DNA from: a virus
Taxonomy: Duplodnaviria > Heunggongvirae > Uroviricota > Caudoviricetes
Length of the DNA stretch: 42,748 nt
Virus record (IMG/VR): IMGVR_UViG_2695420651_000024
Strand: one strand, 5' to 3'
Part shown: in pieces, positions 1-16,469 of the stretch
Layout of the letters: every line of letters begins with the position of its first letter
Numbering within the stretch: position 1 is the first letter of the stretch
The notes under the pieces: model-generated
The model's database searches: none
Seen by the model: the letters and a program-made list of their open reading frames with translations, nothing else
What the model was told of the DNA's origin: nothing
Made by a program: the position numbers and the translations under genes

Positions 1-332
1 CCGCCAACAGGCTGGCTGAAATGCAACGGTGCGGCTTTTTCTGCTGAAGAATACCCGGAACTGGCAAAGGCTTACCCGACCAATAAATTGCCTGATTTAC
101 GCGGTGAATTTATTCGTGGCTGGGATGACGGTCGCGGGATTGATACTGGTCGCGCTTTGCTTAATTGGCAGCCACACACAATTTTGGACCATGCACACTA
201 TATGGAATTATGGACAGGGGACGGACTCGCCGCAGGAAGTGCACGGGAAGGAGTAAACCCAGGAATACTGGCTACATACGGTGACGGGGGAATAGTTAAA
301 ACGGACGAACCCGGTCTTAATGTGCCTTCCTC
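1..332. repeat. Inverted repeat, left copy (reverse complement of 3185..3516); runs to the window edge so the true length is unknown
   Basis: Bases 1..36 are the exact reverse complement of 3481..3516. The 75-aa shadow ORFs 29..256(+) and 3261..3488(-) are identical. Identity ends after ggtcttaatgtgccttcc at 332/3185. Confidence 0.85.
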
Positions 333-384
333 ACTACGAGCTCTCGTAGTGTTAAACGTTATGGTGAAATTAGTGAAAATGTAG
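1..384 (+). CDS. Tail fibre protein, C-terminal tail-collar domain (5' end outside window)
   Basis: Frame open from base 1: [48 protein letters not shown]...HTILDHAHY, identical to the C-terminal part of the 3160..3933 fibre. Followed by a tfa gene. Confidence 0.6.
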   Translation, partial: PPTGWLKCNGAAFSAEEYPELAKAYPTNKLPDLRGEFIRGWDDGRGIDTGRALLNWQPHTILDHAHYMELWTGDGLAAGSAREGVNPGILATYGDGGIVKTDEPGLNVPSSLRALVVLNVMVKLVKM

Positions 385-436
385 GTACAGAAACTCGTCC
401 TCGTAACATCGCTTTTAATTATATCGTAAGGGCCGC

Positions 437-1042
437 ATGATGAATAAAGCTGTATTAAATAGCGAACTCATCACCACAAAGGCGGGAGACATTACCGTTT
501 ACAATTATGATGGTGAGACACGGGAATATATTTCCACATCAACTGAATATCTTGCTGTGGGTGTCGGTATCCCGGCATGTTCCTGTTTAGATGCTCCTGG
601 CTCATATAAAGCTGGTTATGCAATTTGCCGTTCTGCAGATTTTAACTCATGGGAATATGTGCCAGACCATCGCGGTGAAACGGTCTATAGCACTGAAACA
701 GGAGAATCAAAAGAAATCACAGCTCCGGGTGATTACCCTGAAAATACAACCACTATCGCTCCATTAACGCCATACGATAAATGGGATGGTGAGAAATGGG
801 TGACCGATACTGAGGCACAGCATAGCGCAGCAGTCGAAGCGGCAGAAGCACAGCGTCAGTCACTGATTGATGCTGCAATGGCTTCCATTAGTCTGATTCA
901 ACTGAAATTACAGGCCGGGCGGAAGCTGACGCAGGCAGAAACAACCCGGCTTAACGCTGTGCTGGATTACATTGACGCGGTGACTGCAACAGATACCAGC
1001 ACCGCGCCGGATGTCATCTGGCCTGAACTGCCGGAGGCGTAG
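437..1042 (+). CDS. tfa: Tail fibre assembly protein (Tfa)
   Basis: 201 aa; typical Tfa C-terminus ...TAPDVIWPELPEA; directly downstream of the fibre gene. Confidence 0.75.
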   Translation: MMNKAVLNSELITTKAGDITVYNYDGETREYISTSTEYLAVGVGIPACSCLDAPGSYKAGYAICRSADFNSWEYVPDHRGETVYSTETGESKEITAPGDYPENTTTIAPLTPYDKWDGEKWVTDTEAQHSAAVEAAEAQRQSLIDAAMASISLIQLKLQAGRKLTQAETTRLNAVLDYIDAVTATDTSTAPDVIWPELPEA

Positions 1043-1433
1043 GCCATTCAATATCTGGAGCACTGGAGATATCAACCAGTTCCAGTGCGTCCAGATAATC
1101 CAGCCATAAATTATATTGTTCCAGCTCGTCACCTTTCAGACGACCAATAGCGGCTTTACCAGGCCATTGCCTGCTATTCATGTGCTCGTTGGCTTCATTA
1201 ATAAGTTTTCCTTTTTTCAACTCTGCCAATGCAATAAGGTTTTCTTTTGATAAAGGTGGTTGCTCTGTCAAAACCGGATATCCCTCCTGATTGCTGACTA
1301 TTTTCATGCCATTATCCTGACCATCCAGTAGTGACAGCCATTCATCCGTGGTTATCTCAACAGCATCTGAAGGTGCTTTATTTAAATCGGTAAAAAAACC
1401 ATTTTCTTTTTGTGAATAGAAGTATCTGTCCAT
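1014..1433 (-). CDS. Alternative tail fibre assembly protein (Tfa') of the invertible cassette
   Basis: 139 aa; C-terminal SSAPDIEWPTPP motif; convergent with tfa and overlapping its 3' end, as in e14 tfaP/tfaE and Mu U/U'. Confidence 0.7.
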   Translation of the reverse strand: MDRYFYSQKENGFFTDLNKAPSDAVEITTDEWLSLLDGQDNGMKIVSNQEGYPVLTEQPPLSKENLIALAELKKGKLINEANEHMNSRQWPGKAAIGRLKGDELEQYNLWLDYLDALELVDISSAPDIEWPTPPAVQAR

Positions 1434-1436
1434 TTA

Positions 1437-1784
1437 TCAATCTCCAAAAGCAATCCAGTAAGCAAAAGGATTTACTCCTTGCTCAGTCACAGATGACATC
1501 AGGGAAAATTGCGATGGTGAAACAGGTAATGCTGCAAAACTAACCATTGTTGACACACCTGACCGTGCATTATCGTACGATGCAACAACACAATAATTGG
1601 TATTGCTGAAAGATATCGGCAGGGTGATATTTACAGGTGAGCCTAATGGCCCTGATGCTGATATTCCCATTTGAATGATGGTTCCATCAGGCAATTTTCT
1701 CCAGCGATTAGAACTCGGATTTCTTTTCCAGGCTGACATATCCGGTATCTGATTTTCTCCTGTACCCACATCCCTTTTCGCCGC
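1437..1784 (-). CDS. Promoterless alternative tail-fibre C-terminal segment (Sv'-like), expressed only after inversion
   Basis: Open frame (track ORF 1437..1838) with no plausible own start; it begins at the crossover site next to the invertase, the arrangement seen in Mu G / e14 P segments. Confidence 0.5.
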   Translation of the reverse strand, partial: AAKRDVGTGENQIPDMSAWKRNPSSNRWRKLPDGTIIQMGISASGPLGSPVNITLPISFSNTNYCVVASYDNARSGVSTMVSFAALPVSPSQFSLMSSVTEQGVNPFAYWIAFGD

Positions 1785-1810
1785 TTCTCCCAAACCAACG
1801 TTTATGAAAA
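1785..1810. other. Putative Pin/Gin/Hin-type inversion crossover site
   Basis: TTCTCCCAAACCAACGTTTATGAAAA matches the hix/gix/pix pattern TTnnnnAAAACCnnGGTTTnnnnAA at most core positions; lies between the Sv' segment and the invertase gene. Confidence 0.45.
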
Positions 1811-1865
1811 TGCAGAGATAACGGGCAACTGGCATCATCTCCGGTTTTTATTCAGGGGATCCATC

Positions 1866-2419
1866 ATGCTTATTGGCTATGTACGCGTATCAACAAATGA
1901 CCAGAACACCGATCTGCAACGTAATGCACTGAACTGCGCGGGATGTGAGCGGTTTTTTGAGGATAAAATCAGTGGCACTAAGTCCGACAGACCGGGGCTT
2001 AAAAAACTGCTCAGGACACTATCGGCAGGAGACACTCTGGTTGTCTGGAAGCTGGACAGGTTGGGGCGCAGTATGCGGCATCTTGTTACGCTGATAGAAG
2101 AGTTGCGTCAGCGTGGCGTGAATTTCCGAAGCCTGACTGACAGTATTGATACCAGCACCCCAATGGCCGTTTCTTTTTTCATGTCATGGGTGCCCTGGCT
2201 GAAATGGAGCGTGAACTGATTGTTGAACGAACAAAAGCTGGACTGGAAGCTGCTCGCGCACAGGGACGAATTGGCGGTCGCCGTCCCAAACTTTCATCAG
2301 AACAATGGGCGCAGGCCGGGCGACTAATTGCATCAGGCGTTCCTCGCCAGAATGTGGAGATCATCTATGATGTTGGCGTATCGACTTTGTATAAGAAGTT
2401 TCCGGTCGGAGATAAATGA
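1866..2419 (+). pseudogene. pin: Serine DNA invertase (Pin/Gin/Hin family) disrupted by a frameshift
   Basis: N-terminal MLIGYVRVSTNDQNTDLQRNAL...VVWKLDRLGRSM (catalytic Ser region) in one frame (1866..2219); C-terminal GALAEMERELIVERTKAG...GRIGGRRPKL...YDVGVSTLYKK in the next frame (2186..2419). The switch is at about 2163..2170, within ccaatggccgtttc. Confidence 0.8.
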
Positions 2420-2499
2420 AACCGTAGCACGTCGTATGCAAGAACGTGCCACGGCTGGCTGATAAGCTTGTAAAAATATTGAACAGGGAGTGGAGCATT

Positions 2500-3147
2500 C
2501 TATGAAGCTAATTTGTTTAATTTCATTTGTAGTGACTTTACTTCTTGGTCGATAATGTCGAATCCCTTATTGACAGCATCTCTTAGCTCTGCATCAATAT
2601 TTTTTATCCCTTGAGCATAATCTACCATTACATTTATTTTTGCATCATGTAATCTCTTATACATGGTTTTATCTTTGTTATTGTCTGCCATGCCAATAAG
2701 GATTTTTTCATAATCCTCAATGAGTTTGTTGTTTCCTTTAAATGATTGTATTAATGAGCGTGAATATGTGTATATGTTAATTATTGAGTCTCTAGCAGAA
2801 TCATTTAGTTTTGCAATGACATTCGCATTTTGCTCATAGAATGTGAAATTATCATCCCCTACAGGGAATGTGAGAATCAACATTTGTCCCGGTTTTATAT
2901 TATCAATGTGTGTTTTCATCCTTTTATTATATAAATTGATTAGGGTGAAAACTTCTCCCTTAACTCCTTTTAATACTGAAAGTTGTAATTCAAGGGATTC
3001 TCTTTCTGTCTCTACTTTAGACAGCTTAGCTTGTTGGGTAACTCCTTTTAGGGTAAACCATCCGCCAATAAGAGTACCAACTAGAGCTGTGAGGGAGGAG
3101 GATAACCATCCAGGTATGCTATTTAAAAGATTACTAAATTCACTCAT
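2500..3147 (-). CDS. Hypothetical membrane-anchored coiled-coil protein on a low-GC insert
   Basis: 215 aa; one N-terminal TM helix (LLNSIPGWLSSSLTALVGTLIGGWFTL) then K/E/N-rich helical region; DNA visibly AT-rich compared with flanks; sits where a tfa gene would normally follow the fibre gene. Confidence 0.5.
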   Translation of the reverse strand: MSEFSNLLNSIPGWLSSSLTALVGTLIGGWFTLKGVTQQAKLSKVETERESLELQLSVLKGVKGEVFTLINLYNKRMKTHIDNIKPGQMLILTFPVGDDNFTFYEQNANVIAKLNDSARDSIINIYTYSRSLIQSFKGNNKLIEDYEKILIGMADNNKDKTMYKRLHDAKINVMVDYAQGIKNIDAELRDAVNKGFDIIDQEVKSLQMKLNKLAS

Positions 3148-3159
3148 TATAAGTACTCG

Positions 3160-3933
3160 CTAATATTGAACGATATATATATCAGAGGAAGGCACATTAA
3201 GACCGGGTTCGTCCGTTTTAACTATTCCCCCGTCACCGTATGTAGCCAGTATTCCTGGGTTTACTCCTTCCCGTGCACTTCCTGCGGCGAGTCCGTCCCC
3301 TGTCCATAATTCCATATAGTGTGCATGGTCCAAAATTGTGTGTGGCTGCCAATTAAGCAAAGCGCGACCAGTATCAATCCCGCGACCGTCATCCCAGCCA
3401 CGAATAAATTCACCGCGTAAATCAGGCAATTTATTGGTCGGGTAAGCCTTTGCCAGTTCCGGGTATTCTTCAGCAGAAAAAGCCGCACCGTTGCATTTCA
3501 GCCAGCCTGTTGGCGGTGTGACTGAAGGCCACGGAACAGGCACACCAACAGGTAATGCAGAACCTTCTCCCAAACCAAGGTTTTCGAGAGCCGTTTGCAC
3601 AGTGCCATCCGATTTGATATCGCCAAACGGATTCTTGCGGCTCAGGTATTCAACAGCAAACCCCGATCCCAGCAATTCAACAAAACCGGGCAGATCACCA
3701 TTATCAAGCACATCCCGTTGCGTTTTGTCACTTACAAACTGGGCCAGAGCTGCAGCAATAAAGCTGGCCTGTCGAATGGCTTTGTTCACCTGCGCACTGG
3801 ATGCTTTCCCTGCTGTAAATCCGGATAAAAGCGCAGGCAACGCTTCCCATTCCTCCTGCGACATAACATTGGCATTTCGATCAGTTGCAAACGCTTTAAA
3901 GTCATTTTTCGCCATCAGAGTAATACTCCCCAT
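3160..3933 (-). CDS. Tail fibre protein with tail-collar C-terminal domain
   Basis: 257 aa; last gene of the baseplate operon; C-terminal ~110 aa identical to the left-edge fibre fragment (inverted repeat). Confidence 0.7.
3185..3516. repeat. Inverted repeat, right copy (reverse complement of 1..332)
   Basis: See left copy; the identical sequence encodes the C-terminal domain of the 3160..3933 fibre. Confidence 0.85.
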
Positions 3934-4595
3934 GCTCCTACATCAAAACCACTGATGAATTCGTTATCCATATCAAAACCAAAAAATTTTGAGCCTTCCG
4001 ATGGGGTTTCCACCGAAGGAGTTTCAATGCCCCCCGCCCATACCCCGGCGGCTTTTACTGTGAGATACCCCTGTTTAATTGCCGCAATTAACTCACGCGA
4101 TACATCTGAAATATCAGTATCAGGAAAGACCCAGACCGATATCGTCATGTCCTGGTTATCGACTATCTGCATTCGCAGCCCGGATCCTGCTGTTGCCGCG
4201 TCAAGAATTGCCGGAAGCGAATCATTCCGTCCGTCCCAGTTATTAATCGCAATCTTCGCTTTAAGGATGACACGATAAGTTTCATCGCTGAGGTACATGT
4301 ATCCGGAATCAGGATCGTATGGTCCCTGCCATACACCCTGATCATATCCAAGCCCGTCGGTATCCCAGCTGAAATAAACACCTGAGATAGGCTGGCTGAC
4401 AACACGGCTACGTCCGATCCACAATCCCAGAATGTCAAGTTGCACACCAACCGCAGAGTCAATATCAAATGCAGTAATCAGCCCTCTGGTGGCCGCCGCA
4501 ACATCAATAAGCGGCCGGGTCATCAGATCAACATGTGCAAGAAATTTAGGTTTGGTGGCGTGGTAGTTCGTGATTAGTTCGGTGTATTTGCTCAT
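3915..4595 (-). CDS. Baseplate/tail-fibre-proximal protein (Mu gp48-like, DUF2313-type)
   Basis: 226 aa; immediately upstream of the fibre and downstream of the baseplate J-like gene; family assignment from memory. Confidence 0.5.
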
Positions 4596-5791
4596 GACTC
4601 CACCGTTATAACGATATTTTCCGGGGTACAGGACGCAGATTCGTTGTATCTGATATCAATGTTTGATGACGACAAAGCCCCCGGAGATTTCCCAATCGTC
4701 AGTTCCTGAATATCGTAATAGCGTGCATTCCCGCCACTCACCACGCCAAGATTCGCCGGTGAGTAAATGCGACTTAAAAGGACCGAATCACCAATCATCA
4801 GACTATTGATATAGTCGGAAATAGCCTGCTGGATCTGCTGCCCTATCTGTGAGGTATAACCCGTAAAAACTTTTAATTTAATCCGGGCATAAACAGGCAC
4901 ATCACTGGAACGCGAGAATTTGATTACATGGGGATTGCCGTATTTATCCGGAACCGTAACGGATGTTGTACCGTGAGTGGCTGTCCCCTGGCCTTTATTC
5001 CCTCTGATAGCCTGAGCAATATCCATCACATCACCGCCATCCACAATTACAGCAACAGAGTGTGGCGGTAACCCGTTACCGTCCTCCGAACCAGTATCGT
5101 TTTCATAGAGTTTGTGGCGGGTTACACCGGTAACATTAGAAACAGCACCATCCAGTGCTTCAAATGGGGTTATTGATGGCAACGCAACACTTTGCGACTG
5201 GCGGATACGTAACTCCGCATCAGTTTCTGCCGGAGAGCCAACAGTAGCCGCAGCAGGATTAGTTACCGAAACCCAGCCACGGGTTGGCGTATTAATTTCA
5301 GTGATAGTTCCAGCCAGCGCCGCCACTGCACCACTGACGGAACATGTTGCGGTCGCCATCACTGTACCATCCACGCCGACCACCACTGAAGCAGGCAAAC
5401 GCCATATCACACTATTACTGTCTTTCACGCTGCCATTAATGATGGTTGTTCCGGCAGTTCCTGTAAGAAGCAAATCAACCGTAGAATTCGTCGCGCCTTT
5501 ACGTGAAATACCATTTATTTTCACGTTACTGGTCAGTGCGGCCCCATAGCCGGTTGCCGGTGAAAAACAGTTGTAGACAGTTATCGCAGTATTATTGGCA
5601 TCATGAATCGCCAGCGCCATCAGAGCCACCATCTGGCCGTCTTTACTATCCGGTTCGAGGTAGGCATCACTGCCATAAATCTGCTGAAAATAGCTAATCA
5701 GGGTGCTGAGTATCGTCTGATAATCAGGCGCACTGATCCCCTCCGCGGTTACCTTTGCAGATAAACCGAGAGAATCAAGGTTCAGAGCCAT
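4592..5791 (-). CDS. Baseplate J-like protein (Mu gp47-like)
   Basis: 399 aa; position and size in a conserved gp45-46-47-48 order. Confidence 0.6.
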   Translation of the reverse strand: MALNLDSLGLSAKVTAEGISAPDYQTILSTLISYFQQIYGSDAYLEPDSKDGQMVALMALAIHDANNTAITVYNCFSPATGYGAALTSNVKINGISRKGATNSTVDLLLTGTAGTTIINGSVKDSNSVIWRLPASVVVGVDGTVMATATCSVSGAVAALAGTITEINTPTRGWVSVTNPAAATVGSPAETDAELRIRQSQSVALPSITPFEALDGAVSNVTGVTRHKLYENDTGSEDGNGLPPHSVAVIVDGGDVMDIAQAIRGNKGQGTATHGTTSVTVPDKYGNPHVIKFSRSSDVPVYARIKLKVFTGYTSQIGQQIQQAISDYINSLMIGDSVLLSRIYSPANLGVVSGGNARYYDIQELTIGKSPGALSSSNIDIRYNESASCTPENIVITVES

Positions 5792-6144
5792 TACGCCTCC
5801 GATTTAACAGTCGTTATTCCATAGAGAGTGTCGATTTCAGCGGAAAACATGACACGTCGGGTCGTGGTATCCACCGTCGTATTGAAAGAGAGGATTGATT
5901 TAACGCCCCGCGTTTCGAGGATGCGCTTACGGATCGCCAGGTTGTAGGTTTCCGGCTTCTGCTTACCGAGCACAGACTGGATCCACGGGGTCCCTTCGGT
6001 GGTGTCGAGAAACCATTGCCCATACCACAATTCAAATCGCGTTTTTACCGCCTGCGCCACGGCCTCCGGTGAGTTAATCAGCCAGGTGTCATCACCGCTG
6101 CCAAAGGTGTAATCGCCATCGGCGTCTTCACGTCTGTATCGCAT
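5791..6144 (-). CDS. Baseplate protein, GpW/gp25-like (Mu gp46-like)
   Basis: 117 aa; start overlaps the stop of the upstream gene; conserved position. Confidence 0.5.
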   Translation of the reverse strand: MRYRREDADGDYTFGSGDDTWLINSPEAVAQAVKTRFELWYGQWFLDTTEGTPWIQSVLGKQKPETYNLAIRKRILETRGVKSILSFNTTVDTTTRRVMFSAEIDTLYGITTVKSEA

Positions 6145-6896
6145 CAGTTTACCCTATCGGTATTGCTTCCACCGCGCTGAACACCGCCATGAGTGTGCGT
6201 ATCATCGATTGGCTTGCCGTTAGCCTTCACGCTCCCCAAAAACTCAACAGCACCAGTGATTTTTGAAGCCACACCAGAAACCACAGACCCCACCATGCCC
6301 CCCATCCAGGTTAACAGGCCATGAATGGTTACTTTCTCAGAAAAATCAGCCAGAGGGGCAACCACATCAAGACCACCCGGAGCGACAATTTTAATTTTCC
6401 TGGTATCAGGATTAAGCTCAAAATAGGTGCTGCCGTCATCACTACGCAACTGTGTGGCACTGGTATTAATACCGCTAATCCTCCTTGCCTGCGACTGGGG
6501 ACCGACAATACAAAACGCATCCGATAAATCATGCATTCTGTCATCGACCGTCTCCTGTATCCCGCCACTCTGCCACCAGAAATCGATGCAGCGATCGGCA
6601 AAAATCACCAGGCATTCATCGCCGGCTTTTACCGGGAAAGTTAACGTGCAGCCGCCGCCGCGCGGAAATACCACCGGCACATCCACCAGCAGCGGGTAAT
6701 TTTTGGTTACGCGGTTGCCGTCGTTGTCGGTTTCAACCGAACGAATAGCAGGCTGCACAACCGCCGTCACCGCGTCAGGATCGAATGACTGAACGATGCC
6801 AGGCAAAGCGACGCGGATCTGGTTCTTTGTGGTTTCCCGCTCGGATTTGAATGTTTCGGCAAGGTCGCCGCTACGAGTCTGGTCTGATATGGCCAT
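6144..6896 (-). CDS. Baseplate spike/assembly protein (Mu gp45-like)
   Basis: Start taken at the internal ATG at 6896, which has AGGAG 7 nt upstream (product MAISDQTRSGD...); PGIVQSFDP...VVFP...GDECLVIF...RCIDFWW resembles the gp45/gp138 N-terminal domain. Confidence 0.6.
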   Translation of the reverse strand: MAISDQTRSGDLAETFKSERETTKNQIRVALPGIVQSFDPDAVTAVVQPAIRSVETDNDGNRVTKNYPLLVDVPVVFPRGGGCTLTFPVKAGDECLVIFADRCIDFWWQSGGIQETVDDRMHDLSDAFCIVGPQSQARRISGINTSATQLRSDDGSTYFELNPDTRKIKIVAPGGLDVVAPLADFSEKVTIHGLLTWMGGMVGSVVSGVASKITGAVEFLGSVKANGKPIDDTHTHGGVQRGGSNTDRVN

Positions 6897-6910
6897 TTGA
6901 TAAACTCCTG

Positions 6911-6938
6911 AAAACAAAAAACCCGCCAAGTGGCGGGT
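6911..6938 (-). terminator. Rho-independent terminator closing the baseplate moron operon
   Basis: Minus strand reads ACCCGCC-ACTT-GGCGGGT followed by TTTTTGTTTT, immediately upstream of the RBS of the gp45-like gene. Confidence 0.6.
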
Positions 6939-6958
6939 CTACAGGAACAACTCTAAGT

Positions 6959-7129
6959 TTATTTTTTCTGTTTAAAATTGTCCAACTCAGGTTCTTTAAC
7001 GCTTTCTGTCATGTAATCCAATCCACCAAAAGGTACTTCAAGCATTATACTGCTTTCATAATCAGCCATGGATTGCTCTGCTTGCGTTGGCTTGCTTTGC
7101 TGTGAGTTGTCATTATTTGATGTTGTCAT
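6959..7129 (-). CDS. Small acidic hypothetical protein (56 aa), translationally coupled to the membrane protein gene
   Basis: Hand translation: MTTSNNDNSQQSKPTQAEQSMADYESSIMLEVPFGGLDYMTESVKEPELDNFKQKK; ATG 3 nt after the upstream TAG; below the 60-aa track cutoff. Confidence 0.35.
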   Translation of the reverse strand: MTTSNNDNSQQSKPTQAEQSMADYESSIMLEVPFGGLDYMTESVKEPELDNFKQKK

Positions 7130-7132
7130 CAA

Positions 7133-7687
7133 CTATGCCTTATTTATCAAAAGAAAAGTAACCGATAATATGAAAAAACCGAAAGATAACGCAATTCCTT
7201 CAAAAAGATAACGAGCGTAAACTGCCTTTTCTTTATGAAGACTTTCGATCAATTCAACAGCTTTACCATACTGAAACATATGGTATCTAAGCGTTTTAAT
7301 TTTATCACCGTAAAATAAAAAATCATGCTCTTCTTTTCGCTTATGAATAGGCATTTTTGGTATATCTTTCAGTCCCCAAGTACGCCATAGGAAAAAAAAG
7401 CACATAACAATACAAACAAAGCACAGATATGCACAAAGTATAGATAATGTTAAAAACCAATTACTCTTTAGCCCACTTTTGAAATCAACAGTCCCAAATA
7501 CAGCCAGTAGAGCAGAGGTTTCTACAGCTAAAATAGCAAGAAGGTAGTTAACTTTGTCCTCAAGACGACGATATGTTGATTTTGCTTCCTCATATCTATC
7601 TTTATAATATGACGAAATAAAATCAGCGCCTATAGTCTCAATTGCCTTTTGTTCTTCTGTTGTATCTATTGACGAACGCTTGCTCAT
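7133..7687 (-). CDS. Hypothetical multi-pass inner-membrane protein on a low-GC insert
   Basis: 184 aa; about 45-aa soluble N-terminus, two adjacent TM helices, ~60-aa loop, C-terminal TM; strongly AT-rich DNA. Confidence 0.55.
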   Translation of the reverse strand: MSKRSSIDTTEEQKAIETIGADFISSYYKDRYEEAKSTYRRLEDKVNYLLAILAVETSALLAVFGTVDFKSGLKSNWFLTLSILCAYLCFVCIVMCFFFLWRTWGLKDIPKMPIHKRKEEHDFLFYGDKIKTLRYHMFQYGKAVELIESLHKEKAVYARYLFEGIALSFGFFILSVTFLLINKA

Positions 7688-7694
7688 TTCTCAA

Positions 7695-8042
7695 TCAACC
7701 AACAACTTTCTTACACGGGAAAGAGCCAATAATTTTCGGAGCATCCATGCTGTTCTGCAACAACTGGACGTTCAGGAAACGCGTTTTAGTGCCAGGTCGA
7801 TGGATATACTCGAACCCATAATTGTTGCCATCTTTGGCAGGCATCAGGTCCATTTTGATCTGCATGCCTGTACCGTCTTTACCCAACATTTTTACTTTTT
7901 GGGACGTTACTGTTTCGCCATTGATTTTAAATAATGAATCAGGGATCGCATCCATACGAAAGTTGCCGCATTGCATCGTTATGGTGTTTGCACTTACACC
8001 AACAGACACTAATGCCAGCAATGAAAATATCCATCGTTTCAT
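7695..8042 (-). CDS. Hypothetical secreted (periplasmic) protein with Sec signal peptide
   Basis: Start at internal ATG 8042 with GAGAGG RBS; MKRWIFSLLALVSVGVSA / NTITMQCG...; two Cys in the mature part; GC lower than flanking structural genes. Confidence 0.55.
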   Translation of the reverse strand: MKRWIFSLLALVSVGVSANTITMQCGNFRMDAIPDSLFKINGETVTSQKVKMLGKDGTGMQIKMDLMPAKDGNNYGFEYIHRPGTKTRFLNVQLLQNSMDAPKIIGSFPCKKVVG

Positions 8043-8044
8043 TT

Positions 8045-9109
8045 CTATAATCCTCTCTGAAAAGCAGTGCTGGATGGCATATCCTGCGCACCGCGCGCTT
8101 CGCACATCATATCCATGTACCACGCCTGGCCCCTTGTATCGCCAGTGTACATAATCCCGCGCACAATATAAACGCCATCCGTTGCGATGCTGGCAGGCTG
8201 CGATGTGGTGCCGCTTAGCGTAATATTTCCGTCCGTGTTCTGGTCGGTGATCTGCCCACCAGCCATAGCGATATCGTTGTTCGACAACGCGGTGCGATAT
8301 ACGGAAGCCTGATCCAGTTGAATGAGCCCATTAACCCGGATGTTCGGATTAATAAGCGCGCGAACGTTTACGCCGTTGCCGATGGTCTGCTGCGGCATGC
8401 CAATAAGCCCGGTAGCGCTGTTGAGCACAATCGCTTCGTGAACATATTCATTATTCGCCACCATCTGGCGCTGACCGTCTACGAATTGCCATGTTGCGCC
8501 ACATTGCCCGGCTACGTTATCCATTAGATGCCGCGTCATGCCAAAGAGCACCCGCCCCCGGGGGAATACAGTAGCAGGCATTTCAGGCGTCAGGCCTTCG
8601 GTCGCACCTTTGGCTTCGAAGTCTTTCATCAGCGCACGGTTCACATCAGCGACCGTGTAACCGGCAGCCAGCGTCTGTGAGGTTATACTGGTGGCAAAAG
8701 CCAGATCAGTATCTGCTGCCTGAATCAGGACGTAGGAATCAACCGGACTGTCTTTTCCTGTAACCGAGTAGCGAATTTCACCGCTGAAAATCAGTCCGTA
8801 GTTGCGGCCATCACTCTGGCCCACGTCCGCCGCATCAACCTCCCGCACGATCCCGACGTCGCTTGCCGACACCTCCGGCGCGATACCGTCGTAACCCGCA
8901 ATCAGACGCACTTTCGAAAACTCCCGCCCGGTGATTCGGTTCACAGTATCTGCCGAGAGGTTATAAATTTTGATAGTCCCTACCCGGGACGCGCTGCTGA
9001 TGTTGAACCAGTCGATCGTAAAGGTCACTTTAAAATCACTTAGCTCAATTCCCTGACCGTTCCCGTCCACAAGCTGCAGCTCGAAATGTCTCATCCAGTT
9101 CTGTGACAT
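8045..9109 (-). CDS. Baseplate hub-like tail protein (Mu gp44-like)
   Basis: 354 aa; position between tape-measure-proximal genes and the gp45-like gene. Confidence 0.5.
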   Translation of the reverse strand: MSQNWMRHFELQLVDGNGQGIELSDFKVTFTIDWFNISSASRVGTIKIYNLSADTVNRITGREFSKVRLIAGYDGIAPEVSASDVGIVREVDAADVGQSDGRNYGLIFSGEIRYSVTGKDSPVDSYVLIQAADTDLAFATSITSQTLAAGYTVADVNRALMKDFEAKGATEGLTPEMPATVFPRGRVLFGMTRHLMDNVAGQCGATWQFVDGQRQMVANNEYVHEAIVLNSATGLIGMPQQTIGNGVNVRALINPNIRVNGLIQLDQASVYRTALSNNDIAMAGGQITDQNTDGNITLSGTTSQPASIATDGVYIVRGIMYTGDTRGQAWYMDMMCEARGAQDMPSSTAFQRGL

Positions 9110-9111
9110 GC

Positions 9112-9414
9112 TTACTCCGTTGATACCAGTAAATGGCTGCGACCGCCCAGGTCAGTTTTTGTGGGGTAATCCTGTGTGTTGTCATCACAGACCACCACCA
9201 GCTTAAAACCAAGCCCCATACAGGCGTACTGCGCCAGCAGGTCAGCACCAGTGACGAGAGGAATACCGGAGATTACCGGCTCCCCTCTGTCGTTCTGCAG
9301 GTCCATAATCCAGTACAGATCGCGCCATATGATGCTAATCCGCCAGGTAACACCACCCAGGACGATGCTGAACTGCTGGTTGTCCGCTGTCAGCGGAATT
9401 TCCTGAATTGCCAT
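9112..9414 (-). CDS. Phage tail protein (small, baseplate-associated)
   Basis: 100 aa; tightly packed within the tail operon. Confidence 0.4.
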   Translation of the reverse strand: MAIQEIPLTADNQQFSIVLGGVTWRISIIWRDLYWIMDLQNDRGEPVISGIPLVTGADLLAQYACMGLGFKLVVVCDDNTQDYPTKTDLGGRSHLLVSTE

Positions 9415-10001
9415 TAGCCGCCCCCCAGTAATGACGCCACGTTACCCGTGATGCTTTTCAGCAGTGAAGTATCTGGAGGCTTGGTGGTTTTGTTGCCGCT
9501 GTTCTGTACCGCCGAGGTGCTGGCCCCTTCCTTCATGTTGGTTTTATCCGCGACGGAAATCTGCTGTGTCCGGGAGATAAGGACCTCCCTCAGGGTGAGG
9601 ACGGCGGACAGGACGTTTTCGGTTGTCTTGTCCGTCGTCACTTCCAGCGCCCGGATCAACATGTTGCTGTACAGTCGTTTACCGGTTACCACATCGAAGG
9701 GGATACGGCTTTCCTGCAGATCCAGTAGCTCCTGATACGTCTGCTGAGGACTCAGGCCGAGCAGGCTGGTAGCCGTCAGGTTACTGGCAAAATCCAGCAA
9801 TGCGCCACCACCGGCGAAACCAACCTCCATCACCACTTCTGACGGTTTTTTATAGGCATGATCAGCGACAGCGGCCCCGACCTCTACCGGATGCTCTGTT
9901 ATTTCAAGCATATCTGTATGCTTCTCTGAAATAACAACACAGGGAACAATCATTCCTATTTTTCTGCTCTGCTGATGAAAAAGTGTAGAGAGAATATCCA
10001 C
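9414..10001 (-). CDS. Phage tail protein immediately downstream of the tape measure
   Basis: 195 aa; position only. Confidence 0.4.
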   Translation of the reverse strand: MDILSTLFHQQSRKIGMIVPCVVISEKHTDMLEITEHPVEVGAAVADHAYKKPSEVVMEVGFAGGGALLDFASNLTATSLLGLSPQQTYQELLDLQESRIPFDVVTGKRLYSNMLIRALEVTTDKTTENVLSAVLTLREVLISRTQQISVADKTNMKEGASTSAVQNSGNKTTKPPDTSLLKSITGNVASLLGGG

Positions 10002-11989
10002 TAACCCACCCTCACCTGATTACTTCGCATGACCTGAGCATTTGCAGACTGTTGCCGACGTGCAACCTCATTACCGACAGCGTGCGGATCTCCACCACCG
10101 TAAATGTGGTAGGTATTTTGCTGGTTAACCTCTGTCACTTTGCCACTAATTCCCGCCACGGCAGCCTTATTAATCAGCTCCCGAGAATAGATATTTCTTC
10201 CATTCTCATGCTGGATAATGCTGCTCATCAATGCTGACATGGTTTGCGGATCGCTCATATTCAGGGCAGCCCGGGGATCCACTCCCAGTCGTTGCGATAC
10301 AGCCCTGATATACGCAGTTGTGTTGTTATTATCAGACGCAGGTGCCCAGGTAGAGATAATTTTCTCCACACTGTTTATTCCCCGTCCGGCGTACAGCATT
10401 AACTGACGAGCAAGAGCCCGTAATCCATCAAAAGCAGTTTCAAATCTGGCAAATCGCCCGCCCGGGCGTTCAAGAGAAGCCCCTGCCTGACCAGCAAAAT
10501 TAAGGTTTCCCGGATTGTTATTCCGTTCTCCTCGTTTCGTAGCCTGTGCATGTTGTTCCGGCTCATCATCACCAAACCAGCCGCGTACCGTCCGGCCCAC
10601 ACTGCGGGGATCGAATCCCCAGTGCTCTTTAATCCAGTCGGCAGTACTGTTAGCGCTGTCTGTAACCATCGGCATCGCTGACGGATTTTCGCTGCCCTGA
10701 TTAAGTATCTGTTTGCCGATGCTGACGGCATCAGCCCAGCGGCCATCTTTGATAGCGTTGAGCAGGTCGGCGATCATGTTCAGCATTTTGCTGAATTCGC
10801 CCATCTGGTCGATGAAGTTGCTGAAATCCCACTTCAGGGACCATGATTTGGGGTCAATATTGAGCAGTTTCGCCAGCGCTTTCACCAGGTCGTTAACGGT
10901 CGTTTTAAGGTCACGAACCATCTTCAGCGCGGCATCGACCTCCGGTTTCCACTTGCCCCAGTCAATCAGGCTGTCGCCGCCTTCCTTCCAGGTCTGATAG
11001 TCCTCCCACAGGAGGGCAATACCCGCCGCCAGCGCGGTAATGAGGCCAATCGGCGACATCCAGAACGTACTGTTCAGAATGCGCAGCGCAATCGTCAGTG
11101 CGCCAAACAGCGAGATCAACTCCCGCGTTTGCTTATCCAGCGATTGCCACCAGGTGATAAGGCCTGATGTCCCCTCAATCAGTCTGAAGAACAGCCGCCC
11201 GATAATATCCCCGAGCGCCAGAATGCCTTTTATGGCTTTCGTCAGGGTCTGCTCGATACGAGGGAAGTTGTCCAGGATATGGCGGCGCAGGGTGTCCAGC
11301 GAACCCGCAAGCCCCCCCGCAAGATTAGAGCCGATTTTGTCACGGGCCATGCCTGCCATCGCGCCAAACTCACGCAGGGAGGTCATAAATTTGTTGGAGC
11401 TTCTGGCCGCCTCGTCAGCATTGAAGCCGATAGCTTTCGCCATTGCGCTGTACTGCCCGGAGAAGCCACCCACACCCCGGCGCATCGCCATAAGGGTATT
11501 TTCGTCAATGCCCAGCATCTGCGCATACTGGTTAGCCCGGTAATACGGCATGCTGCTGAGTTTCTGTCCAACGCCCGTAAAAATAGCGGCCATGTCACGC
11601 ATGTTACCGCTGGCATCACGGGTCTGTACGCCCAGGCGATTCAGAAAGCCTTCTGCACCGGGATTGTTACGAATAAACCGGGATAGGCTTTCCAGAGAAG
11701 ATCGCGCAGCGTCCACGCTGCCGCCAACCTGCGAAACCGCATAGCCAATAGACTGAATTCCCTGGACTGTCGCGCCGGTGCGCTGTGACGCCCAGTAAAG
11801 ATTATCCAGGCCGGAGGCGATCTTAGCCGTGAAGGCCACCACGGACAACGCAGCTCCTTCAACAGCCAGCCCCATTTTGATGACATTTGCAGTTGTACCG
11901 GCGAGGACAGAACCGAACTTTTTCGCTCCTGCATCATCCACACTGAAGCCAAGCGAGACGAGGAAATCTTTAATAGTTTCAGCGTTCAT
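10001..11989 (-). CDS. Tail tape measure protein
   Basis: About 660 aa, Ala/Gly-rich helical protein with a central hydrophobic segment. Start set at ATG 11989 (MNAETIKDF...) preceded by GGAGAGAGG; the track's longer N-terminus reads through that RBS. Confidence 0.7.
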   Translation of the reverse strand: MNAETIKDFLVSLGFSVDDAGAKKFGSVLAGTTANVIKMGLAVEGAALSVVAFTAKIASGLDNLYWASQRTGATVQGIQSIGYAVSQVGGSVDAARSSLESLSRFIRNNPGAEGFLNRLGVQTRDASGNMRDMAAIFTGVGQKLSSMPYYRANQYAQMLGIDENTLMAMRRGVGGFSGQYSAMAKAIGFNADEAARSSNKFMTSLREFGAMAGMARDKIGSNLAGGLAGSLDTLRRHILDNFPRIEQTLTKAIKGILALGDIIGRLFFRLIEGTSGLITWWQSLDKQTRELISLFGALTIALRILNSTFWMSPIGLITALAAGIALLWEDYQTWKEGGDSLIDWGKWKPEVDAALKMVRDLKTTVNDLVKALAKLLNIDPKSWSLKWDFSNFIDQMGEFSKMLNMIADLLNAIKDGRWADAVSIGKQILNQGSENPSAMPMVTDSANSTADWIKEHWGFDPRSVGRTVRGWFGDDEPEQHAQATKRGERNNNPGNLNFAGQAGASLERPGGRFARFETAFDGLRALARQLMLYAGRGINSVEKIISTWAPASDNNNTTAYIRAVSQRLGVDPRAALNMSDPQTMSALMSSIIQHENGRNIYSRELINKAAVAGISGKVTEVNQQNTYHIYGGGDPHAVGNEVARRQQSANAQVMRSNQVRVG

Positions 11990-12166
11990 TATCCTCTCTC
12001 CATTTCTCAATGCGTCGCTGGTTATCCGCTTTTACCGCCAGATGGTCATTCAAGAGAGCAATGTCATACAAATCGACAGAGCCATCTTTAAGTGCTGTAT
12101 AAGGAATTAACCCGGCGTCAACCGGATTGAGAAGGTAGGACAGCCCGTCCGGCAGGCTGTTAAACG

Positions 12167-12619
12167 TCAGCCTTGTTGCAGGCTCTGCGTCGTGCTGGTA
12201 AGGGGTGTAGGCAAAAAATTTCCCAGCGAATCGGCGACCACCCGCGCCACCAGCTGCAGCATGACCAGCAAGTCAATATCATCAAACATCAGTTCGCCCT
12301 GGGTAAATACCGGCACCCATCCGTCCATATGACGCCGCGATACCACCGCAAGACAGGGATGAATAATCGCATCGGTGTCATCTTCGGTCAGGGAAGACAG
12401 TTCCTCAGCGATACGCGGGAGCATGGTTTCAAACACCGGTTTTAACTGTTCGAATTTCACGGTGTCGATTTTGCCGTCAGCAGGCAAACGGGAGCGAATA
12501 CTCCCGAAATCTGACATCATTCCTGCCAGCACCGGCAGAAGTTTGCGGGTCACTTTCAGCTGGTCAAAAACGCTGAGTTTTGCCGTGCGATATTTCACGC
12601 CTTTAATTTCGAATTCCAT
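12167..12619 (-). CDS. Tail assembly chaperone (frame-0 product)
   Basis: 150 aa, directly upstream of the tape measure; see the frameshift finding. Confidence 0.55.
   Translation of the reverse strand: MEFEIKGVKYRTAKLSVFDQLKVTRKLLPVLAGMMSDFGSIRSRLPADGKIDTVKFEQLKPVFETMLPRIAEELSSLTEDDTDAIIHPCLAVVSRRHMDGWVPVFTQGELMFDDIDLLVMLQLVARVVADSLGNFLPTPLTSTTQSLQQG
12212..12221 (-). other. Candidate -1 programmed frameshift slippery site (AAATTTTTTG) in the tail chaperone
   Basis: Minus strand reads GGG-AAA-TTT-TTT-G near the 3' end of the chaperone; the -1 frame is open for about 75 codons up to a TGA overlapping the tape-measure ATG (11979..11981). Confidence 0.45.
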
Positions 12620-12622
12620 GCA

Positions 12623-13063
12623 TTAAAACTCCCCGAGAACCTGGTCAATCTTGCCGCAGTCAAACACCCACGGCATCGTATTACCGGTTTTAGCGTTGGC
12701 GTTATCCGGTTGTTTCTGGAACGCAACACTGCGTGCCGTGATGATGTCGCCGCTGACCTTGTTGCGGATCACGATAACGTTATTCCCCCATGTGGCAGAA
12801 GACTGGCTCTGTGCGTTATACGCCAGCGACAATTTTTTATTTGTCGGTGATGTCTTCAGAAGGTTAACGGTAATCGTCCCGCTTTTATCTGCATGGAGAC
12901 TGTGCATCACTTCGCCATCAGCACCGATGGTCATGGTGTTTTTAGGACCGCCCATCGCAACCACAATCCCCTCTTCAGAACTTGCCGAACCGTACCCGAG
13001 GTCAATCGAACCTGTCGGCCCGGTCAGCGTCGCAGTGACATCCATAAAAGAATAGGTAGACAT
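12623..13063 (-). CDS. Tail tube protein
   Basis: 146 aa, between sheath and chaperone. Confidence 0.55.
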   Translation of the reverse strand: MSTYSFMDVTATLTGPTGSIDLGYGSASSEEGIVVAMGGPKNTMTIGADGEVMHSLHADKSGTITVNLLKTSPTNKKLSLAYNAQSQSSATWGNNVIVIRNKVSGDIITARSVAFQKQPDNANAKTGNTMPWVFDCGKIDQVLGEF

Positions 13064-13073
13064 TCACTTCCCC

Positions 13074-14219
13074 TTAGCGAACAACGTTAATCTGTACGTC
13101 AGCGTAATGAACCGCGCCTGCAAGTTTTATTGCAGCCTGAATCACCGGAGCCTTACGGGCTTCACGTTCTGATTGAGCCTGTTCATCCAGCGGCTGAGCG
13201 TATACGTAATAACCTTTGGGCAGTGTGTCACCTGATGACAACTGACCAAGGTCGCCCCCGTTCCATACGCCCGGAGCAATCAGTCCATTCTGAACGGCCT
13301 GATCCAGTGATTTTTCAACATTTGATAACAGTCGGGTAATACCGGCTTCAGTCTGGGGAACTTTCGTGGTGCTGGTATAAAGCAGGTTATAGAGGTTGGT
13401 CTGCACATAATTCTGTAACCAGTCCAGGCCGTGGCGTTCATCAAAGAAATCGCCGTTAGCCATCACTCCCTGCTGGAGGATAGCCGTATCATTCTGGTAG
13501 TACACGAATACATTGCAGTTTTTTGCATCAAGTGCCGATGCCTGGCTGACTGTCAGTGTTTCATACCCGATACCCGGCTCCTGCTTAAACTTGAGCGTAA
13601 TCGCGGTATTACTGCCATTGAAATTAACCGTGAATGCCCGGCCAAATGCAGATAACGCAGCGTATTTATTACCCGATGAATACTGAATAAAACTGCGTGA
13701 ATATCCGGCGGTTTTCAGTTTTGATGCCAAATCATCGCTGGATGCAGTCTGCAGGCATTTCTCATCGCTTGTCGTAATCGCCAGAATACGGCTTACAGAA
13801 GAGGATTCGATCGCCGCAGCCACTTTCAGCCAGTCTGCATCCTGAATATCTTCATCGTCTGCAATCCCCAGCCCATACCATGAAGTATAATCAAGCATGG
13901 CATTCACAGCCTGCTCCAGCGTCTCAGGCGTGGCCTGTTCGCTGTCTCCCTTCGTTTTCACCCAACGACCAACAAAAACCTCCTGAGGTTTCGGTGATTG
14001 AGAGAAAAACACCTGCGCAGCCTTATATTCTGGTGATTCCACGCCAAAATCTTTTCCAATATCTTCCGCGGCAGAATAACGGCGAATGCGCTCACTTACC
14101 GGAATGATTGTGGACGGGCCGAGAATGAGTAATGCACCAAAATTTCGCCCTGATGCTGCACGCGGCGACATGATCACATCAACATTAACAACGTTTGATA
14201 CAGGCAAGCCCTGTGCCAT
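13074..14219 (-). CDS. Contractile tail sheath protein
   Basis: 381 aa; position upstream of tube-chaperone-tape measure. Confidence 0.6.
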
Positions 14220-14222
14220 AGC

Positions 14223-14789
14223 TTAATCTCCGAAAAAGATGACTGGTGCATCCACCAGCGATTTAATACCGTACTCGCGCACAACCTTCCGGCGCAGGCG
14301 CACCGTCATATCGTAGCGGCGGACCCATTGCTGATTAATAAGTTCAGGGAAGGGAGTCAGACCTGTGTAATCGCCAAGAGACAGCCCCAGCGCATTCAGT
14401 GCTGCATTGTTCTGCGGCACAGATATACCGTCACGAAACCGGGACGCATACACCATCCCCGCCGGTCCATAAAACGAAGCCATACACTCAATCGTTTCAT
14501 GCCGCCAGAGCTGAGAGCCATCATCGGTCTGTCTGGTGAATGCCGGACTGTCATCACCTGACCATCCGATAACCCCAAACGCACACCAGTTCGTTTCAAC
14601 CGGTAGCAGTGGCGGCTGCTCTTTCTGCCAGCGCGGGCGAACCATCCCGGCAGACAGACCGGAAACGTTACGTATCCACTGGCTTAACAGCCTGTCGAGC
14701 GCTTCGTCATAATCCGGATCGCCACTGGTTGGTATTAACCATCCGCGCTCTGTACTGGTGTTATTGCTCAACCGGAGTTCCCCCATCAA
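14223..14789 (-). CDS. Head-tail joining / tail completion protein
   Basis: 188 aa; position between head and sheath genes. Confidence 0.35.
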   Translation of the reverse strand: MMGELRLSNNTSTERGWLIPTSGDPDYDEALDRLLSQWIRNVSGLSAGMVRPRWQKEQPPLLPVETNWCAFGVIGWSGDDSPAFTRQTDDGSQLWRHETIECMASFYGPAGMVYASRFRDGISVPQNNAALNALGLSLGDYTGLTPFPELINQQWVRRYDMTVRLRRKVVREYGIKSLVDAPVIFFGD

Positions 14790-15150
14790 ACGGCATCAAC
14801 TCACAATGCGCCTGAACGAATCCGGCCCCATAAGCTGTATACGGGTCGACGAAGGTCACACGGTAATCACGGCCCTGATACGTCACGATATCGGCATCAC
14901 GGCCAGTCTGTCCCTGCGTCAGTCGCTCAGTCGTCACAATCAGAATTGCACCACTGATTACCTGCCCGGCCTGCATACGACGGTTTTCCAGAGAGCGATC
15001 AACAGTAACGACTCCGGCAAACTGCTTTTTAACTTCGCTGTCGCTGCCGATTCCGTCCTCATCCACCGTTTGCACACGGCGTGTTACCCACAAATTGAAG
15101 TCGCAAAAATCGGGGTCAAAAAGCACATCTGTTACATCAAGAGTCGGCAT
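14761..15150 (-). CDS. Head-tail connector/closure protein
   Basis: 129 aa; position. Confidence 0.35.
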   Translation of the reverse strand: MPTLDVTDVLFDPDFCDFNLWVTRRVQTVDEDGIGSDSEVKKQFAGVVTVDRSLENRRMQAGQVISGAILIVTTERLTQGQTGRDADIVTYQGRDYRVTFVDPYTAYGAGFVQAHCELMPFDGGTPVEQ

Positions 15151-15691
15151 CTTTATCCCTCACTACATGGGTAATAGCTCTGCGATATTGCCCGGTGTCA
15201 ATTAATGGTTTCGCCAGATCGGTTCCGGGAGATTCGCCAGCAACACGCCGGGCAAGTTCCAGTGTTGCCCCCTTGCGCCCCCGACGAGCCCGGGCTTCAA
15301 CAGTACTGTCAGCAAGCGGCGTAAAGCCGGTAATGGTCATGTAACGCCTGACGCCATTAACGGCCAGCGTTCCGGCACGGTTGAGTGCACTTTCTGCTCC
15401 CGCAGCATTACCATCAAGTGCAGCCTGCGCCGCGGCTTTAAGCTGCGGCACCGTCTGCTCTTCTGCCGATTTAACGCCGGGGACCAGGTGAGGTCGTGGC
15501 GGGATGTTCTGCTCTGGTGAGCCGTATTCGTTGAGGTAACCGATGCCCGCATTACCAAACGGAACATCATCCCGTTCGCTGTCTTCCGAAGGGATGCCGA
15601 CCAGCACATCTTTTTTGGTTAACGACCTGAGCGCATCCAGAATGGCCTTAGCGTTATCCACCCTCGTTGTTACACCGCTTTTGAAACTCAT
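15137..15691 (-). CDS. Head-tail connector protein
   Basis: 184 aa; position. Confidence 0.35.
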
Positions 15692-16095
15692 AGCTGGCGA
15701 CCGCCTGCACCGAACATCGTGATCAACTGATAAAATTCAGCGCCATATCGGGTGTTATTCCAGAAACCTGCATCAGGATTCAGCGTCGCGCTGGTGTCAT
15801 AGCTGACGCTTACCTTATCCACGGACTTTGAGGACTGAACACCATTGGTTGAACCGCCCGGACCACCAGCCAGCATCGCTCTGCTGTCAGCCGCCCAGAG
15901 CGTCATGTAGTGAGCAACGAACAACCCGGCAAAGTACGGAAACAACTTTTTGCCGGTGACATTTTCGCTCAGCAGTTCATCGGCCAGATTCAGACGGAAC
16001 CCGATTTGGGCGTCGGGATATTTTGCCGGGTCAGCAAACTGCGGGAAGTCGCGGCGAAAATCACTTACCGCTGGCAGACTTTGATTCTTTGACAT
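15688..16095 (-). CDS. Phage structural protein (DUF4054-like)
   Basis: Start set at internal ATG 16095 ([13 protein letters not shown]...); position after capsid genes. Confidence 0.4.
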
Positions 16096-16429
16096 CTTTA
16101 GCCCCATTACCGCCAGTCCGGGCGGCAGTAATCTGCGCCTGCAGGCTGTCGTTCTGCTCCTGCAGTTTGAGCAATGCATCTTTAAGATCGGCAATCAGCT
16201 TATCTTTGTCGGCAATCTGCGCTTGCAGGCCGTCGATAATGGGTTGCAGATCATCGGTGTCGCTAATCACGCTTTCGGAAAGCTCAGAGTGCGCCTGGGT
16301 GAACCAGTGCGACGCGACCTCTTCCGGTACGTTATGCCGTCCCCGGCCAAACTCCTGTTTTGACTGATCGCCGAGCGTCAGCGTAAACGGGGTGTGAACA
16401 TGGATGGTAACCAGCTTTTCTTTCGCCAT
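16061..16429 (-). CDS. Hypothetical head protein with coiled-coil C-terminus
   Basis: Start at ATG 16429 ([11 protein letters not shown]...) with AGGAA RBS; the longer track ORF runs into the capsid gene. Confidence 0.35.
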
Positions 16430-16469
16430 TTCAGTTTCCTTCAGGCCCCTTTCGGGGCCATTCTGGTTA

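What the first reader, a model, noticed from the sequence alone, without database searches (positions are those of the whole stretch)
1866..2419. The Pin-family invertase is split by a single-base frameshift, so the fibre switch is probably locked
The N-terminal catalytic half ends in PMAVSFFMSWVPWLKWSVN*, while the next frame continues with the expected GALAEMERELIVERTKAG...GRIGGRRPKL. Intact Pin/Gin/Hin proteins are one continuous ~190-aa chain, which is consistent with a 1-nt loss around 2163..2170 (atggccg where atgggccg is expected). Without invertase the cassette cannot flip unless another invertase acts in trans.
Basis: partly seen in the sequence, partly recalled or inferred. Interest (0 to 1): 0.45.

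Follow-up and report, generated by a model that had tools for sequence, protein, structure and literature searches.

The report
Inherited frameshifted Pin invertase pseudogene
The DNA-flipping enzyme gene of this E. coli prophage really is broken by one missing G, but this is a common, already annotated pseudogene, and related strains show the tail-fibre segment has still flipped since the break.

Summary
ORF 1866..2219 (100 native residues plus 17 out of frame) and ORF 2186..2419 are the two halves of a Pin-family serine invertase. They are split by loss of one G (GG at 2165-2166 where intact alleles have GGG). Adding one G restores a 184-aa protein that matches Mu Gin end to end.

It is not a base-calling error. 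The same allele is 100% identical in 14 complete E. coli records, where RefSeq flags it "frameshifted", and both fragments occur on at least 1000 public contigs each. The deletion arose once and spread by phage mobility and recombination. Derived copies have decayed further (start codon lost, P160H).

"Locked" is only partly right. The crossover sites are identical to those of e14. Carriers of the identical dead allele hold the segment in both orientations, with crossovers inside the 26-bp sites. Pin-family enzymes are known to act in trans.

In this window the 3.2-kb end carrying the invertase gene (pin) is inverted relative to the fibre's constant part. A 332-bp inverted duplication and a junction found nowhere else accompany it, and both A-type fibre copies are broken. 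That may be real or a misassembly.

Ordinary and already known.

The parts
1866..2219 (+). Invertase pseudogene, 5' part: 100 native residues of the serine-recombinase catalytic domain (Ser9 present), then 17 out-of-frame residues and a stop
   Evidence: (PF00239, E=1.4e-36)
2165..2166 (+). Site of the 1-nt deletion: GG where all intact alleles have GGG (codon Gly101, ATG GGC reduced to ATG GC)
2186..2419 (+). Invertase pseudogene, 3' part in the -1 frame: rest of helix E plus the HTH_7 DNA-binding domain. Native codons resume at 2165 in this frame. No Shine-Dalgarno sequence is visible upstream of the ATG at 2186.
   Evidence: (PF02796, E=2.4e-12)
2174..2180 (+). T_TTT_TTC heptamer in the post-deletion zero frame. 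A -1 slip here would restore the frame and give G101A/R102V/F103S. It is a by-product of the ancestral Phe-Phe-Phe codons and probably not functional.
1785..1810 (+). pin-proximal 26-bp crossover site TTCTCCCAAACCAACGTTTATGAAAA, identical to the K-12 e14 site next to pinE
3565..3590 (+). Crossover site at the boundary of the constant and variable fibre parts, TTCTCCCAAACCAAGGTTTTCGAGAG. In this window it has the same orientation as the 1785 site (direct repeat). It is inverted in all reference prophages.
1437..1838 (-). B-type variable fibre cassette (gp53-like C domain) with a short pin-proximal leader that reads across the crossover site
   Evidence: (PF21882)
1014..1433 (-). Tail fibre assembly gene for the B cassette
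   Evidence: PF02413
437..1042 (+). Tail fibre assembly gene for the A cassette
   Evidence: PF02413
1..423 (+). A-type variable fibre cassette (collar type), cut by the window edge. It is frameshifted by a 7-nt deletion at about 338-343 inside the quasi-palindrome at 332-351.
3185..3516 (-). Second, inverted copy of the first 332 nt of the window (100% complementary). Its inner end is the unique junction at 3184/3185.
3160..3933 (-). Constant fibre part fused to a truncated A cassette. The 257-aa chimeric ORF ends ...[12 protein letters not shown], against 281 aa in strain 12009.
2500..3147 (-). orf215, a conserved prophage-end gene downstream of pin. It has no match in four family libraries.

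Best explanation
This is a genuine, inherited pseudogene of a Pin-family serine DNA invertase, in a myovirus-type prophage integrated between yfhH and yfhL. One G was lost from a GGG run in codon 101. Translation ends after 100 native and 17 foreign residues, so the product lacks helix E (the dimer and tetramer interface) and the HTH domain that binds the crossover sites. It cannot recombine DNA; this last step is inferred from the family's known structure. The deletion happened once in an ancestor. It has since travelled with the prophage to several integration sites and has moved by homologous recombination into other pin alleles. The invertible fibre cassette keeps intact crossover sites identical to those of e14. 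It therefore remains a substrate for Pin-type invertases encoded by other prophages in the same cell. That is the most likely reason both orientations are found among carriers of the dead allele. The switch is thus orphaned, meaning slow and dependent on foreign invertases. It is not permanently locked. In this particular window the cassette is also structurally damaged.
For: A single 1-nt indel separates this gene from intact alleles, and repair gives a 184-aa Gin-like protein. The allele is identical in 14 complete records, flagged frameshifted by RefSeq, and widespread. Single origin plus recombination: CS6L's allele is e14-like over bases 1-204 and carries the frameshift haplotype over 205-554. 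Carriers sit at three chromosomal sites: yfhH, pphA/rsmF and gst/rnf. Continued decay after the frameshift: COL60J has ATG changed to ATA at the start codon plus P160H, and the haplotype carries private S144, S145, N163 and E165 where intact alleles mostly agree. The crossover sites are identical to e14. Both orientations occur among carriers, with exchange points inside the sites. Every carrier chromosome has 2-7 places homologous to the pin ORF. Trans inversion of the e14 P segment by PinQ, PinR and PinE has been shown experimentally (PMC12529663).
Against: I could not show that any second invertase gene in a carrier genome is intact; I have only counts of homologous places. In K-12 a pinE deletion leaves the P segment locked at native expression, so trans inversion may be rare or conditional. 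Orientation differences could in principle come from recombinational replacement of the cassette and not from inversion. The strain that the window comes from is unknown, and its other invertases cannot be examined.
Confidence: 0.85

Rival explanations
1. Leaky rescue. The T_TTT_TTC heptamer at 2174..2180 (or the T6 run, through transcriptional slippage) lets a small fraction of ribosomes or transcripts return to the invertase frame. This would make a full-length enzyme with G101A/R102V/F103S that flips the cassette in cis at a low rate.
For: The heptamer fits X_XXY_YYZ in the correct frame. It lies 9 nt after the deletion and before the ORF1 stop, and the predicted product is full length. U_UU.U_UU.C is listed among heptamers giving more than 0.10% -1 frameshifting in E. 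coli without stimulators, and some IS elements use it (PMC4066793). Both orientations exist among carriers.
Against: The heptamer follows automatically from the ancestral TTC TTT TTT codons and has not evolved for this role. There is no downstream RNA structure (z=0.15). The expected yield is a fraction of a percent, on an enzyme altered at the hinge to helix E. Derived frameshifted alleles lose the start codon and a conserved Pro, which looks like neutral decay and not a maintained gene.
Confidence: 0.06
2. Sequencing or assembly error in a homopolymer: the gene is intact in the real strain.
For: The lesion is a 1-nt change in a short G run next to a T6 run. The window also carries other private lesions of its own (7-nt deletion, odd junction, portal stop) that could point to imperfect sequence.
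Against: The same deletion is present at 100% identity in 14 complete records, including Sanger-era genomes. It is also in more than a thousand contigs from independent projects.
Confidence: 0.01
3. The switch is truly locked. The two orientations among carriers reflect horizontal replacement of cassettes, or independent origins of the deletion, and not inversion after the frameshift.
For: Pin alleles and cassettes are clearly mosaic (H10407's A cassette is only 86% identical). In K-12 a pinE deletion strain is locked at native expression.
Against: Within the near-identical O103:H2 prophages (12009 against 2011C-4251) the segment is the same sequence simply reversed, and both exchange points lie within the 26-bp sites. 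The frameshift haplotype carries shared private substitutions, which argues for one origin.
Confidence: 0.08

Closest known systems
PinE and the P segment of cryptic prophage e14 (E. coli K-12)
   Same: The pin genes are 85.7% identical at the DNA level. The two 26-bp crossover sites are identical. The layout is the same: constant fibre part, two alternative variable cassettes, two assembly genes, and the invertase next to one site.
   Different: K-12 pinE is intact (184 aa) while this allele lacks one G. The prophage backbone, integration site and cassettes differ: the gp53-like cassette is only 39% identical to the K-12 StfE2 counterpart. orf215 takes the place of mcrA.
Gin and the G segment of phage Mu
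   Same: The repaired protein aligns with Gin over residues 1-181 at E about 1e-92, including Ser9 and helix E. The site core AAACC-NN-GGTTT and the Sc/Sv/U architecture are shared.
   Different: Gin is functional and slightly longer at the C-terminus. The gix flanks differ. This phage is not a transposable phage: it has a tyrosine integrase and a fixed attachment site.
Trans-acting prophage invertases PinQ and PinR (Kirigo et al. 2025, PMC12529663)
   Same: They show that a P-type segment with these crossover cores can be inverted by invertases encoded in other prophages. That is the mechanism proposed here for flips after the frameshift.
   Different: That work concerns e14 in K-12 with an intact pinE. 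No experiment exists for this prophage or for this dead allele.

Membership tests
Gin/Hin/Cin/Pin small serine DNA invertases | N-terminal resolvase-type catalytic domain with the Ser nucleophile (Ser9 in Gin) | tested here: met
   PF00239 at E=1.4e-36 on ORF1. MLIGYVRVSTNDQ aligns with Gin residues 1-13, and 3UJ3 carries Ala at position 9 where the window has Ser.
Gin/Hin/Cin/Pin small serine DNA invertases | One continuous chain of about 180-190 aa joining the catalytic domain, helix E and the C-terminal HTH | tested here: not met
   The gene is split into 117-aa and 77-aa ORFs by a 1-nt deletion. It is a member by descent (a pseudogene) and not a functional member.
Gin/Hin/Cin/Pin small serine DNA invertases | C-terminal HTH_7 DNA-binding domain | tested here: met
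   PF02796 at E=2.4e-12, but only in the -1 frame.
Gin/Hin/Cin/Pin small serine DNA invertases | Gene adjacent to a segment bounded by two inverted 26-bp crossover sites | tested here: inconclusive
   The sites are inverted in all reference prophages (L002, L003, L005, L006) and in e14. In the window the two sites present (1785, 3565) are direct repeats because of the 3.2-kb inversion. A third site may lie just beyond the window's left edge.
Gin/Hin/Cin/Pin small serine DNA invertases | Fis-dependent recombinational enhancer in cis, inside the 5' part of the invertase gene | not tested
   This feature is known from the family, but I ran no Fis-site analysis. The 5' 300 nt are 100% conserved among the 14 carriers.
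Gin/Hin/Cin/Pin small serine DNA invertases | Catalyses inversion of its segment | not testable with these tools
   Only comparative evidence is available: both orientations occur among carriers.
Mu G / P1 C / e14 P type invertible tail-fibre switch | Constant 5' fibre part, two oppositely oriented variable 3' cassettes, each with its own assembly gene | tested here: met
   Collar-type and gp53-like cassettes and two Caudo_TAP genes are present. The layout is the same in L002, L003 and e14.
Programmed -1 ribosomal frameshift genes | Slippery X_XXY_YYZ heptamer in the zero frame | tested here: met
   T_TTT_TTC at 2174..2180.
Programmed -1 ribosomal frameshift genes | Stimulatory element (downstream structure or upstream SD-like sequence) | tested here: not met
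   The fold of 2181..2260 is no better than shuffled sequence (z=0.15). No SD-like sequence is seen upstream.
Programmed -1 ribosomal frameshift genes | Both frames kept under purifying selection among relatives | tested here: not met
   Start codon loss and P160H in COL60J; changes among frameshifted alleles are 3 non-synonymous to 1 synonymous.

The most novel reading that the evidence does not exclude
Loss of the resident invertase may not be mere decay. It could hand control of this cassette to invertases of other prophages, such as phage-inducible PinQ-type enzymes. The pin-proximal gp53-like ORF (1437..1838) is the architectural counterpart of the anti-T2 protein StfE2. Under this reading it would be switched as part of an inter-prophage defence network, and the dead allele would persist and spread because that arrangement is useful.
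Probability: 0.08. Interest if true: 0.5.

Novelty: already known. Interest (0 to 1): 0.12.

Why it matters
It matters little in itself. This is a common pseudogene allele that public annotation already flags. The useful lesson is methodological: a broken cis invertase does not mean a frozen switch, because Pin-family sites are interchangeable and E. coli genomes usually carry several such enzymes. Anyone predicting the host range or phase state of this prophage should look at the orientation and integrity of the cassette itself. In this window the cassette is damaged independently of the invertase.

Tried and rejected
1. Sequencing error: rejected because the allele is identical in many independent genomes.

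2. Recurrent hotspot mutation at GGG: rejected in favour of one origin plus recombination, because the 94%-identical CS6L allele is a mosaic whose 3' two-thirds is the same haplotype.

3. Invertase-mediated origin of the 3184/3185 junction: rejected. Neither breakpoint resembles a crossover site, there is no microhomology, and a reciprocal exchange would not duplicate 332 bp.

4. Locating the window's source or a second instance of the junction: the 38-mer across it is absent from viral, species-representative genome and metagenome contigs. No complete E. coli genome spans it. The chimeric 257-aa fibre is absent from about 15 billion proteins.

5. Identifying an intact second invertase in a carrier genome: not possible, because the similarity tool shows only the best place per record. 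I obtained only counts of 2-7 places.

6. Function of orf215: no hit in Pfam, NCBIfam, PADLOC or PHROGs.

7. Equating ORF 1437..1838 with K-12 StfE2: the leader architecture is the same, but identity is only 39% over 100 aa, so no function is transferred.

Full report

Yes. Pfam puts the serine-recombinase catalytic domain on the first ORF (PF00239, E=1.4e-36). It puts the last part of that domain plus the HTH_7 DNA-binding domain on the second.

I aligned the gene with an intact close allele (96.2% identical), K-12 e14 pinE (85.7%) and Mu gin. The only indel is one missing G: CCAATGGGC reads CCAATGGC in the window, with GG at 2165-2166, in codon Gly101. Adding a G gives a 184-aa protein collinear with intact 184-aa relatives. 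That protein matches Mu Gin structures 3UJ3 and 4M6F over residues 1-181 at E about 1e-92. As encoded, the product has 100 native residues, including Ser9, followed by 17 foreign ones. It lacks helix E and the DNA-binding domain. That this makes it inactive is an inference from what is known about this family.

**2. Is it an error?**

No. The 554-nt gene is 100% identical in 14 complete-genome records. These include ETEC H10407, O103:H2 12009, O45:H2 FWSEC0003 and several other O103:H2 isolates. RefSeq annotates it as "recombinase family protein, frameshifted". The exact 117-aa and 77-aa fragments each occur on at least 1000 public contigs, and the 117-aa fragment is indexed in 1456 blocks of the assembly collection.

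**3. History of the lesion**

The same deletion is also in COL60J (99.3% identical) and CS6L (94.2%), in the same prophage type at the pphA/rsmF site. CS6L's allele is a mosaic. Bases 1-204 are e14-like, and 205-554, which include the deletion, are the window's haplotype. So the deletion arose once and has been moved by recombination.

Carriers are also found at a gst/rnf site, and one genome has two copies.

Decay continued after the frameshift. COL60J has lost the start codon (ATG to ATA) and has P160H. The haplotype carries private S144, S145, N163 and E165 at positions where the intact alleles mostly agree.

**4. Is the switch locked?**

Not over evolutionary time. In reference prophages and in K-12 e14 the two 26-bp crossover sites are identical sequences in inverted orientation: CTCTCGAAAACCTTGGTTTGGGAGAA and TTCTCCCAAACCAACGTTTATGAAAA.

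Among complete records with the identical dead allele, 5 have the gp53-like cassette next to pin and 9 have the collar-type cassette there. The split also occurs within the O103:H2 group, with 12009 against 2011C-4251, SJ7, the UTAK strains and others. In a wider sample of 10 places, 7 were one way and 3 the other, and the two copies in one genome differed. Between 12009 and 2011C-4251 the segment is the same sequence reversed, and both exchange points lie inside the 26-bp sites.

Every carrier chromosome has 2-7 places homologous to the pin ORF, but I could not check whether those genes are intact.

Kirigo et al. 2025 showed that PinQ, PinR and PinE all invert the e14 P segment. They also found that a pinE deletion strain stays locked at native expression (PMC12529663). 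The best reading is an orphaned switch that flips rarely or conditionally through foreign invertases.

**5. A rival worth stating**

After the deletion the zero frame reads tct ttt ttc, so T_TTT_TTC (2174..2180) is a canonical -1 slippery heptamer. A slip there, or an extra U made in the T6 run during transcription, restores the frame and gives G101A/R102V/F103S. U_UU.U_UU.C gives more than 0.10% frameshifting without stimulators in E. coli, against a background of about 0.055% (PMC4066793).

Three things argue against this rescue mattering. There is no downstream structure (z=0.15). The heptamer is a by-product of the ancestral Phe-Phe-Phe codons. The derived alleles show decay. I rate it at about 6%.

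**6. What the window itself looks like**

The window is the prophage between yfhH and yfhL of an O103:H2-12009-like strain, and it ends exactly at the yfhL stop codon. Over 3185..42748 it differs from 12009 by 27 SNPs and one 1-nt indel.

It is not collinear with that strain. Positions 1..3184 correspond to the right-hand 3.2 kb of the prophage: the A cassette, both assembly genes, the B cassette, pin and orf215. This block is in the opposite orientation to everything from 3185 onward. Positions 1..332 are a perfect inverted copy of 3185..3516.

The junction at 3184/3185 joins a point 37 bp upstream of orf215 to the middle of the A cassette. It has no microhomology, and it lies right next to a quasi-palindrome.

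The consequences are:
- The fibre gene attached to the constant part is a truncated 257-aa chimera, against 281 aa in 12009.
- The other, full-length A cassette has a 7-nt deletion within 10 nt of the same palindrome and is frameshifted.
- The two crossover sites in the window are direct repeats.

The junction is in none of 5,426 complete E. coli genomes, nor in viral, species-representative genome or metagenome contigs. The chimeric protein is not among about 15 billion proteins.

A 332-bp inverted repeat allows the segment between its copies to flip by homologous recombination. It also lets an assembler place that segment in either orientation with the same set of junctions. So the orientation shown may not be the true or only one. 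The extra inverted fibre fragment abutting orf215 is the part that cannot be explained away. I cannot tell a real rearrangement from a misassembly without reads.

**7. Verdict**

The finding is correct as an observation and ordinary as biology. It is a known, annotated, widely distributed pseudogene of a well-understood enzyme family. The "locked" inference needs softening in general, and for this window it needs replacing by "the cassette is damaged anyway".

Noticed in passing
window 1..332 and 3185..3516; junction at 3184/3185: A perfect 332-bp inverted duplication of the collar region of the fibre gene brackets the 2.85-kb block that carries pin. The junction is blunt, lies 37 bp upstream of orf215, and was found in no public collection searched. 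It may be a real inverted duplication or an assembly artefact, and the window edge hides how far the left copy extends.
   Followed up: partly
window 332..351: The quasi-palindrome CACTACGAG-CT-CTCGTAGTG has lost 7 nt (AGCTATT or ATTAGCT) relative to 12009 and 2011C-4251, which frameshifts the full-length A-type fibre cassette. The deletion lies within 10 nt of the breakpoint of the other copy, which suggests one hairpin-associated event.
   Followed up: partly
window 19793..21259 (- strand), SNP at 20703: The portal-like DUF1073 gene has a TGG to TAG change (W186 to stop) relative to 12009, so this prophage copy probably cannot make particles. Conversely, the minor head gene (19168..19941) is an uninterrupted 257-aa ORF here, but it is annotated as frameshifted in 12009, which has an extra T.
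   Followed up: partly
window 1437..1838 (- strand): The pin-proximal ORF has a 17-aa leader that reads across the crossover site into a gp53-like C domain. This is the same architecture as K-12 StfE2, which was reported to block phage T2 adsorption, but identity is only 39% over 100 aa.
   Followed up: partly
window 2500..3147 (- strand): orf215 is a conserved 215-aa protein in the slot after the invertase, where e14 has mcrA and Mu has com/mom. It has no hit in Pfam, NCBIfam, PADLOC or PHROGs. In this window it lies directly downstream of the truncated fibre ORF and in the same orientation.
   Followed up: partly
L015 and L016 (GCA_900448385.1); L018 and L021: One genome carries two copies of the prophage with the frameshifted pin, at different chromosomal sites and with the cassette in opposite orientations. 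Several carriers have IS66 insertions in the baseplate or assembly genes.
   Followed up: no
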